A stretch of 64,000 nt of DNA, taken from NCBI RefSeq assembly GCF_009914755.1, contig NC_060938.1, one strand, 5' to 3'. The position numbers and the translations under genes are program-made. Positions 9,110 to 44,831 of this stretch are shown in pieces. The first letter of the stretch is position 1; every line of letters starts with the position of its first letter. The notes under the pieces were generated by a model that saw nothing but the letters and a program-made list of their open reading frames with translations, did no database searches and was not told the DNA's origin. Source of the DNA: the human T2T-CHM13v2.0 reference genome, Homo sapiens.

Positions 9110-10634
<1,525 letters not shown>

Positions 10635-36108: not shown

Positions 36109-37372
<1,264 letters not shown>

Positions 37373-43287: not shown

Positions 43288-43383
43288 GGAAATATCCTTC
43301 ACAGGATTTACACACACACACATTTACTTTCAAATGGAAATATCCTTCACAGGATTTACATACACACACACACATTTACTTTC
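43288..43383. repeat. Tandem duplication, 48-bp period, each unit containing a (CA)n tract
   Basis: GGAAATATCCTTCACAGGATTTA-(CA)n-TTTACTTTC twice. Confidence 0.95.
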
Positions 43384-43786
43384 CCTAACTCTGAGGAAAT
43401 CTCAACTCTTTCATTCAATTGGCTGCTGAACACTATTGTGTGTCAGTTACATTCTAGAAATACAAAGAAGATGATAAGGAAGACAGTAAAACTGGAGCCC
43501 TGTCCCAGTACCACATGCAAAGCCTGACGTGGACTCTAAGACCCATTACCTAAATGCAAAAGTCAAAGCTGCAAAGCTAGTAGAAGAAACTGTAGAATGT
43601 CTATGTGACCTAAGGATGAGAAATACTTCTTAAACAAAATACAAAAGCGCAAACCAAAAGGCAAAACATTGACTAATGAGGTTTCATCAAAGCTAAGCTT
43701 TTCAGTTCCACAAACGATATTACGGACAAAATTAACAGAGCACTGACAGAGTAGGAGAAGATATTTATAATGCTTTACCCATTTTA

Positions 43787-44460
43787 TTTTTTTTTTAAGT
43801 GAAAGCAAGTTTATTAAGAAAGTGAAGGAATAAAAGAATGGCTACTCCATAGGCTGCTGGTTGCCCATTTTTATGGTTATTTCTTGATTAGATGCCAAAT
43901 AAGGGGTAGATTATTCATAAGTTTTCCAGGAAAGGGGTGGGCAATTCCCAGAGCTAAGGATTTCTCCCCCTTTTTAGACCATATAGGGTAACTTCCTGAT
44001 GTTACCATGGCATTTGTAAACTGTCATGGCGCTGGTGGGAGTGTAGCAGTCAGGACCACCAAAGGTCACTCTCATTGTCGTCTTGGTTTTGGAGGGTTTT
44101 AGCCCGGTTATTTGCTGCAAACTGTTTTATCAGCAAGGTCTTCATGACCTGTATCTCGTGCTGACCGCCTATCTCATCCTGTGACTTAGAACGTCCAGCC
44201 TCCTGGTAATGCAGCCCAGTAGGTCTCAGCCTTATTTTACCCAGCCCCTATTTAAGATGGAGGCACTCTGGTTCAAATGCCTTCGACATTTCTCCCCTCC
44301 CTTTTATAAGAGAACCCTTAATCCTAAGTGTTGTAGGAAGATGAAGATCCATCTTCCGTAACTTCTTCAGGCTGAATAGGGGCGATGATATTCCTGCCTC
44401 AGTATGAGGGTTTCTTGTATTCGGGGCAGAGAGGGCTTAGTTATACAGCATCAGTATGCA
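43787..44460 (-). mobile_element. Processed MER41 (ERV1) transcript: internal 3' end, PPT, LTR U3-R (44288-43797), poly-A
   Basis: Minus strand: PPT AAAAGGGAGGGGAGAAA, then TGTCGAAGGCATTTGAACCAGAG (MER41 start), ending AATAAACTTGCTTTCACTT-(A)10. 14-bp TSD CTTTACCCATTTTA at 43773-43786 and 44461-44474. Confidence 0.88.
43924..43932. promoter_or_regulatory. GAS (STAT) motif TTCCAGGAA in the MER41 LTR
   Basis: Matches TTCNNNGAA. The neighbouring site at 43945-43953 (TTCCCAGAG) is broken. Binding not shown. Confidence 0.5.
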
Positions 44461-44831
44461 CTTTACCCATTTTAGAGTAATATCTACAATGTCTAAGAAA
44501 TTCCTAAATCCAAAATAAAAAGACAGCAATCTCAAAGGAAAAATAGGTAAAGGATGACAAAATGCAATTTACAGTGAAGGAAACCCCAGAGGACTAACAT
44601 GCTTATGAACAGACACTCAGATCCACAGTTATCAGTGAAATGAAAATTGAAACAACAATGAAATGTAACTTTACAATTAGACTGCCAAAATTTAGAAATC
44701 CGGAAAATGCTAAGGGTTGGCTGCAGTATGGGACTATAAAACCCAAAGGATAAAAAAGATAAATAAGACCATTACCGCAATAATGACTAATAATACCACA
44801 GAAATTAGAAGCATCTTTAAAAAAAAATTAC

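What the first reader, a model, noticed from the sequence alone, without database searches (positions are those of the whole stretch)
43773..44474. MER41 endogenous retrovirus RNA apparently retroposed by L1
Seen: the insert has about 170 bp of internal sequence, a PPT and U3-R. It stops 13 nt after AATAAA with an A10 tail, lacks U5, and is 5'-truncated. It is flanked by a 14-bp TSD at a CT/AAAA site. Known: ERV1 integrase gives about 4-bp TSDs and complete LTRs, whereas these marks fit L1 target-primed reverse transcription, as in HERV-W processed pseudogenes. Inference: L1 also spread MER41 U3 enhancers, and this copy maps the MER41 poly-A site. I do not know whether this has been catalogued for MER41.
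Basis: partly seen in the sequence, partly recalled or inferred. Interest (0 to 1): 0.7.

Follow-up and report, generated by a model that had tools for sequence, protein, structure and literature searches.

The report
MER41 viral RNAs pasted by L1
This is a 674-base end piece of an ancient primate retrovirus (MER41) with a poly-A tail and a 14-base duplication, likely pasted in as RNA by the L1 enzyme, and about one in ten matching sites in the human genome end the same way, many as 67-base stubs that likely record prematurely ended transcripts.

Summary
Confirmed. The insert (minus strand, 44460-43787) is 170 bp of internal sequence with a polypurine tract, then U3-R, ending 13 nt after AATAAA in A10, without U5, between exact 14-bp repeats. 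It interrupts an old L1 fragment that aligns to its paralogues best with one 14-mer, so the repeat arose at insertion. It is not alone: 63 of 591 plus-strand copies of the poly-A motif are followed by an A run. Of 39 tailed loci examined, 9 carry a whole U3, 6 part of U3, and 24 are R-only stubs of about 67 nt that start about 29 nt after a TATA-like box. Two full-length copies start at the same base and have lost GT-AG introns precisely, which shows an RNA intermediate. Best reading: L1 retroposed MER41 RNAs in bulk, and the stubs are fossils of promoter-proximal polyadenylation (rival: a truncation hot spot at a hairpin). A 2017 review calls HERV-W the sole HERV group so mobilised; ten literature searches found no MER41 or R-only report, but Dfam notes and Pavlicek 2002 could not be read. 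Enhancer activity of this copy is untested, and L1's share of U3 spread is small.

The parts
44461..44474 (-). Target-site duplication, copy at the 5' end of the insert (13-14 bp)
   Evidence: host colinearity
44459..44460 (-). Two bases that match neither target nor neighbours (likely untemplated)
44289..44458 (-). 3' end of the internal region, 5'-truncated 30-45 nt downstream of a splice acceptor seen in neighbours
44289..44305 (-). Polypurine tract
   Evidence: sequence
43797..44288 (-). U3-R of a MER41A/B-type LTR, no U5
43945..43953 (-). Degenerate GAS (STAT1-type) site, 21 bp from the second
   Evidence: spacing as in PMC2897888
43924..43932 (-). Intact TTC-N3-GAA GAS motif; binding untested
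43868..43875 (-). TATA-like box, about 29 nt upstream of the inferred start of R in intact copies
43852..43855 (-). Site of a 17-bp gap relative to neighbours, covering the inferred transcription start
43810..43815 (-). AATAAA poly-A signal
43787..43796 (-). A10 tail at the modal cleavage site
43773..43786 (-). Target-site duplication, copy after the tail
43548..43772 (+). Host: old L1 ORF2 3' fragment, left part
44475..44664 (+). Host: old L1 ORF2 3' fragment, right part, colinear with the left

Best explanation
The insert is a tailed, U5-less, 5'-truncated piece of a MER41-type element between 14-bp repeats, likely made when L1 ORF2p nicked an old L1 fragment and reverse-transcribed a polyadenylated MER41 RNA there, and it is one of a genome-wide set whose commonest form is an R-only stub that likely derives from LTR transcripts polyadenylated about 67 nt after their start. 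Shown: anatomy, duplication, shared 3' end, intron loss in sister copies, shared 5' start of stubs and full-length copies. Inferred: L1 as the enzyme, the position of the start site, premature polyadenylation as source of the stubs, an age of roughly 35-45 million years. The copy cannot move again and, lacking the inferred start site, is probably no promoter; it could still act as a weak enhancer.
For: Exact repeat at both ends, chance 0.08. Flanks align with three L1 paralogues best with one 14-mer (scores 26, 14, 18) rather than two (19, 7, 11) or none (17, 9, 9); a fourth paralogue was uninformative; the paralogue is L1 ORF2 (E 1.5e-29). Genome-wide 43 of 591 plus-strand motif sites are followed by A7 and 63 of 591 by A4. 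In 16 of 29 tailed loci tested, the locus's own flanks give a better duplication than all 28 mismatched-flank controls. L062 and L010 run R-U5-leader-internal-U3-R-tail and join a donor to the acceptor exactly; L005 lacks the GT...AG stretch that L004 keeps. 24 of 39 tailed loci are R-only, starting 61-69 nt before the tail site on the ruler copy, where L062 and L010 also start. Short RNAs polyadenylated in the 5' LTR are documented for foamy virus and MLV (PMC3694450, passages).
Against: No primate orthologue could be examined. 13 of 29 tested loci did not beat all controls, 11 of them R-only; of the 12 R-only passes one is only 7 bp and one lies 33 nt from the end. No convincing duplication was found for the 10 A-ended neighbours, most of whose 5' ends lie outside the held stretch. 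The stubs start at the foot of a 9-bp hairpin, so a truncation hot spot is not excluded, and the full-length copies carry the same hairpin. A cap-to-AATAAA distance of about 48 nt is short, and promoter proximity usually suppresses polyadenylation (recalled). No transcript data were seen. The sample was chosen by an exact 20-mer and an A run.
Confidence: 0.8

Rival explanations
1. The focal copy is an L1 retrocopy as described, but the R-only stubs are ordinary long MER41 RNAs whose copying stopped at the 9-bp hairpin at the start of R.
For: The stub start coincides with the 5' foot of the hairpin (-18.6 kcal/mol, z -3.1 for L074 with some flank). Both full-length copies have the same hairpin at their 5' end, so they do not separate the two readings.
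Against: The start also sits 29-30 nt after the TATA-like box. 15 of 39 tailed loci were copied through the hairpin. A 60% stop at one short hairpin is out of line with L1 copying highly structured Alu RNA mostly whole (recalled).
Confidence: 0.25
2. A normal provirus or LTR lost U5 and most of its body by deletion, or a tail-only L1/Alu inserted at the R/U5 border, and the repeat is chance.
For: Alu insertions and deletions do hit this LTR region (L008, L009, L014, L023).
Against: In those cases U5 resumes after the Alu; here it is absent. It explains neither the 14-bp repeat around the whole element, the colinear host, the shared end base nor the precise intron loss.
Confidence: 0.02
3. The piece was carried as the 3' end of a cellular or L1 read-through RNA that used a resident MER41 poly-A site, not of a viral transcript.
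For: A 5'-truncated copy does not show where its RNA began; L066 starts at the first bases of U3 with no polypurine tract and remains unexplained.
Against: All of the insert but 2 bases is MER41-type sequence, and full-length sister copies start at R. The enzyme would still be L1.
Confidence: 0.1

Closest known systems
HERV-W processed pseudogenes (PMC5016936, PMC5537654, PMC6995185; passages read)
   Same: R-U5 at the 5' end, U3-R at the 3' end, poly-A, TT/AAAA-like site, 5-15 bp duplication, some copies spliced; R of similar length (positions 256-326 of LTR17); MER41 is placed in the same HERVW9 supergroup.
   Different: Another LTR family; those papers call HERV-W the sole group so mobilised and catalogue 135 of 213 elements; no R-only class appears in the passages read.
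HERV-K(HML-2) 2q32.1 retrocopy and HERV-H retroposed copies (PMC3590776, passages)
   Same: Spliced HERV RNA copied by L1 with tail and duplication.
   Different: Reported as single or few loci, not as about a tenth of a family's poly-A sites.
Promoter-proximal polyadenylation in foamy virus, MLV and HIV-1 5' LTRs (PMC3694450, passages)
   Same: Short R RNAs cleaved and polyadenylated in the promoter LTR when suppression is incomplete.
   Different: Measured as RNA in cells; here inferred from genomic copies.
MER41B STAT1-bound LTRs (PMC2897888, passages)
   Same: Tandem GAS sites 21 bp apart.
   Different: One site is degenerate here, U5 is absent and binding is untested.

Membership tests
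L1-made HERV processed pseudogene | 3' LTR is U3-R without U5 | tested here: met
L1-made HERV processed pseudogene | Poly-A tail at the viral cleavage site | tested here: met
   A10, 13 nt after AATAAA; same base in 40 of 60 listed loci
L1-made HERV processed pseudogene | 5-15 bp duplication at a TT/AAAA-like site | tested here: met
   13-14 bp, CT/AAAA
L1-made HERV processed pseudogene | 5' LTR is R-U5, or introns are lost | tested here: inconclusive
   The focal copy is truncated below the acceptor; met in L062, L010 and (intron only) L005
L1-made HERV processed pseudogene | Single target copy at the empty site | tested here: met
   By proxy only: host L1 aligns best with one copy in 3 of 4 paralogues, the fourth uninformative; orthologues not available
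MER41 (A/B) LTR | Best match to the Dfam/Repbase MER41 models | not testable with these tools
   No repeat library held; name recalled
MER41 (A/B) LTR | Tandem GAS sites 21 bp apart (MER41B) | tested here: met
   43953-43945 and 43932-43924 against PMC2897888
MER41 (A/B) LTR | Thousands of dispersed copies | tested here: met
   3834 first-look candidates; 1167 exact 20-mer sites; 7197 annotated
MER41 (A/B) LTR | Simian-specific | not testable with these tools
   No other primate genome held
Integrase-made provirus or solo LTR | Complete U5 and a 4-bp duplication | tested here: not met
   4 bp given for ERV-MER41E in PMC11905727
SINE (for the R-only stubs) | Amplification from master copies with their own promoter | tested here: inconclusive
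   19 stubs are 0.87 alike, as are 10 long tailed copies, with 1 identical pair of 171 over 44 nt: no sign of a young burst; promoter not tested
Known structured RNA family | Rfam match | tested here: not met
   2 weak matches far below gathering score

The most novel reading that the evidence does not exclude
MER41 is a second HERV family retroposed in bulk by L1 (several hundred copies by extrapolation), and most of these copies are an undescribed class of 67-nt R-only poly-A retrocopies that preserve the start site, the poly-A site and the leaky promoter-proximal polyadenylation of an extinct virus in the simian germ line; the same class may exist, unnoticed, for other LTR families.
Probability: 0.4. 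Interest if true: 0.72.

Novelty: new variant of a known kind. Interest (0 to 1): 0.58.

Why it matters
It contradicts the published statement that L1 mobilisation is peculiar to HERV-W and gives a second family, in the same supergroup, for asking what made these RNAs good L1 substrates. The retrocopies map start site, splice junctions and poly-A site of an extinct element without any RNA data. Roughly a tenth of MER41 poly-A sites are not LTRs made by the virus, which bears on solo-LTR counts, dating and enhancer enrichment. The R-only stubs would be a genomic record of premature polyadenylation in germ cells. The focal locus alone is ordinary and lies far from genes.

Tried and rejected
Rfam scan of 43600-44700: nothing near threshold. 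The shared start of most BLAST hits at 44458 first looked like a natural boundary; it is only the end of the query, as the neighbours continue upstream. Exact-match duplication search in the 10 A-ended neighbours found none beyond chance. An 11-mer candidate duplication for L066 lies in a flanking L1-like fragment and was rejected. L002 has a gap near the focal 17-bp gap but with other ends, so it is not a source marker. The spliced-junction pattern gave only 4 matches against 1 in the control, too few to count spliced copies. One search listed R-U5-leader copies but cannot tell proviruses from retrocopies without flanks. A young master-copy (SINE-like) burst of stubs was not supported. Regular-expression subfamily typing mostly failed and was not used. 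Pavlicek 2002, Chuong 2016 and Ohshima 2003 were not held; no supplements were read.

Full report
Observation. On the minus strand the order is: 14-bp repeat (44474-44461), 2 unmatched bases, 170 bp of internal sequence ending in a polypurine tract, an LTR from 44288, AATAAA at 43815-43810, the last element base at 43797, A10, and the second repeat (43786-43773). The repeat occurs only at these 2 places in the window; 0.08 matches are expected by chance. A nick at CT/AAAA would give 13 bp, so the fourteenth base is ambiguous.

Empty site by proxy. No primate orthologue is held. The flanks, however, match other places in the window and loci, and one of these translates to L1 ORF2 residues 996-1069 (E 1.5e-29). 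With the insert removed, the flanks align to three L1 paralogues best with one copy of the 14-mer (26, 14, 18) rather than two (19, 7, 11) or none (17, 9, 9); a fourth paralogue gave no alignment. The margins are modest but agree: the repeat was made at insertion.

Family. I recognise the LTR as MER41A/B from recall; no repeat library was available. Support from calls: two GAS-type sites 21 bp apart, the spacing given for MER41B in PMC2897888 (passages), and high copy number. One site is an intact TTC-N3-GAA, the other degenerate. The copy is 81-86% identical to its 29 fetched neighbours, which fits entry in the simian ancestor (PMC11905727, passages); an age of 35-45 million years is my inference from a recalled neutral rate. 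The LTR lacks 17 bp found in L003 and L013 just 3' of the TATA-like box.

Not a single event. The search with the insert scored 40 of 3834 candidates and I fetched 30 loci, the focal one included. Of the 29 others, 18 continue into U5 (two are near-identical X/Y copies), 10 stop at the same point in A-rich sequence (8 clear, 2 decayed) and 1 is cut by an Alu. A 20-mer around the poly-A signal has 1167 exact sites. On the plus strand, where counts are not redundant, 43 of 591 are followed within 4 bases by A7 and 63 of 591 by A4; reversed-pattern controls gave 0. Among the 60 distinct loci in the 100 rows listed (22 rows were not listed), 40 begin the A run at the same base as the focal copy, by my count. 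Only 2 matches ran 6 or more bases into U5 before an A7. The cleavage site is therefore sharp and the focal end is the modal one. Scaling 11% to the 7197 annotated MER41 pieces suggests several hundred retrocopies; this is extrapolation, and the motif may also occur in related LTR families.

Anatomy of tailed copies. I examined 39 of those 60 loci; 3 more were already held and 18 were not seen. Nine carry a whole U3, 6 part of U3, and 24 only R (2 of them split by later Alus). The R-only copies begin 61-69 nt before the tail site on the ruler copy L013, most at 66-68, which is 29-30 nt after a TATA-like box. For 29 loci with a 5' end set by eye (23 R-only, 6 longer), I scored the best duplication against 28 controls pairing the same 5' flank with another locus's 3' flank: 16 of 29 beat all controls, 12 of 23 R-only. 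One pass is only 7 bp and one lies 33 nt from the end; the 13 failures are mostly short A-rich or decayed repeats. The stubs are no more alike (0.87 over 44 nt, 19 copies) than long tailed copies (0.87, 10 copies), so they look like many old independent events.

RNA intermediate. L062 reads R-U5-leader-internal end-U3-R-tail in about 910 bases; L010 has the same plan with another exon and two Alus; both start where the stubs start. Their junctions join a donor seen as GT in unspliced copies (L006, L007) to the AG acceptor seen in most neighbours, and L005 lacks exactly the GT...AG stretch that L004 keeps. The focal copy starts 30-45 nt below that acceptor, so its own splicing state is unknown. 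One U5-bearing copy (L006) also lacks a similar stretch, so loss of it is not confined to tailed copies.

Mechanism. Shown: the structures above. Inferred from established L1 biology: ORF2p nicked the T-rich strand, primed on the tail, copied 664 bases and stopped. Inferred for the stubs: LTR transcripts were cleaved at the promoter LTR's own signal, about 48 nt from the cap, most simply in solo LTRs that have no downstream splice donor to suppress it. Short RNAs of this kind are shown for foamy virus and noted for MLV in PMC3694450 (passages). The rival is real: R opens with a 9-bp hairpin whose foot is the stub start, so reverse transcription may stop there. I put about 0.9 on L1 retroposition of the focal copy and about 0.7 against 0.3 on premature polyadenylation against truncation for the stubs.

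Enhancer claim. Ten of the 12 U3-bearing tailed loci scanned... were not all GAS-positive: 9 of 12 hold at least one intact GAS motif, as does the focal copy. But whole-U3 copies are 9 of 39 tailed loci, thus some 2-3% of motif sites. L1 added to the spread of MER41 U3 but did not drive it. No binding or activity data were seen, and the hub's table lists no functional element here.

What is in print. PMC5537654 (passages) calls HERV-W the sole HERV group specifically mobilised by L1; PMC5016936 (passages and one section) counts 135 such copies and notes that the earlier Pavlicek set was rich in pieces under 0.5 kb; PMC3590776 (passages) reports one HML-2 case and cites HERV-H; PMC6995185 (passages) reports spliced HERV-W copies. 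PMC5753468 and PMC4724089 (passages) place MER41 in the HERVW9 group with HERV-W. PMC11359688 and PMC10194239 (passages) held nothing on the point. Ten searches (listings only, apart from the papers named) showed no report of MER41 retrocopies or of R-only copies. Pavlicek 2002, Dfam and Repbase notes, subscription papers and all supplements were not seen and may mention them.

Verdict. The locus is a new member of a known kind; the family-wide set and the R-only class make it a new variant. Interest 0.58.

Noticed in passing
L038 (G000:C1:202863269): An R-only tailed copy with a 9-10 bp duplication sits in reverse orientation inside the R region of another MER41-type LTR.
   Followed up: partly
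L045/L046 (G000:C2:108082324 and 108083309): Compound element with two tails: a short U3-R-tail piece lies inside the internal region of a longer tailed copy.
   Followed up: no
L060 (G000:C3:199097786): Tailed copy with a duplicated leader, an apparently spliced junction and a 36-bp tandem array inside U3.
   Followed up: partly
L066 (G000:C5:58179024): Tailed copy that starts at the first bases of U3, with no polypurine tract, no U5 and no clear duplication; unexplained.
   Followed up: partly
G000:C23:48090302-48090614: An R-U5-leader match lies about 90 bases before a spliced-junction match: candidate multiply spliced full-length copy, not fetched.
   Followed up: no
G000:C23:61564596-61565071 and 61663541-61664016: The internal acceptor motif recurs every 228 bp, three times, in two inverted places.
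   Followed up: no
L010, L031, L053, L054, L056: Alus often inserted at or inside the junctions of tailed copies, which reuse the A-rich targets.
   Followed up: partly
window 43288-43383: Short tandem duplication (48-52 bp spacing) with CA runs, 400 bp from the insert.
   Followed up: no
window 9849-10287 and 37101-37289: L1 ORF2 3' fragments on the minus strand, used as paralogues of the host.
   Followed up: yes
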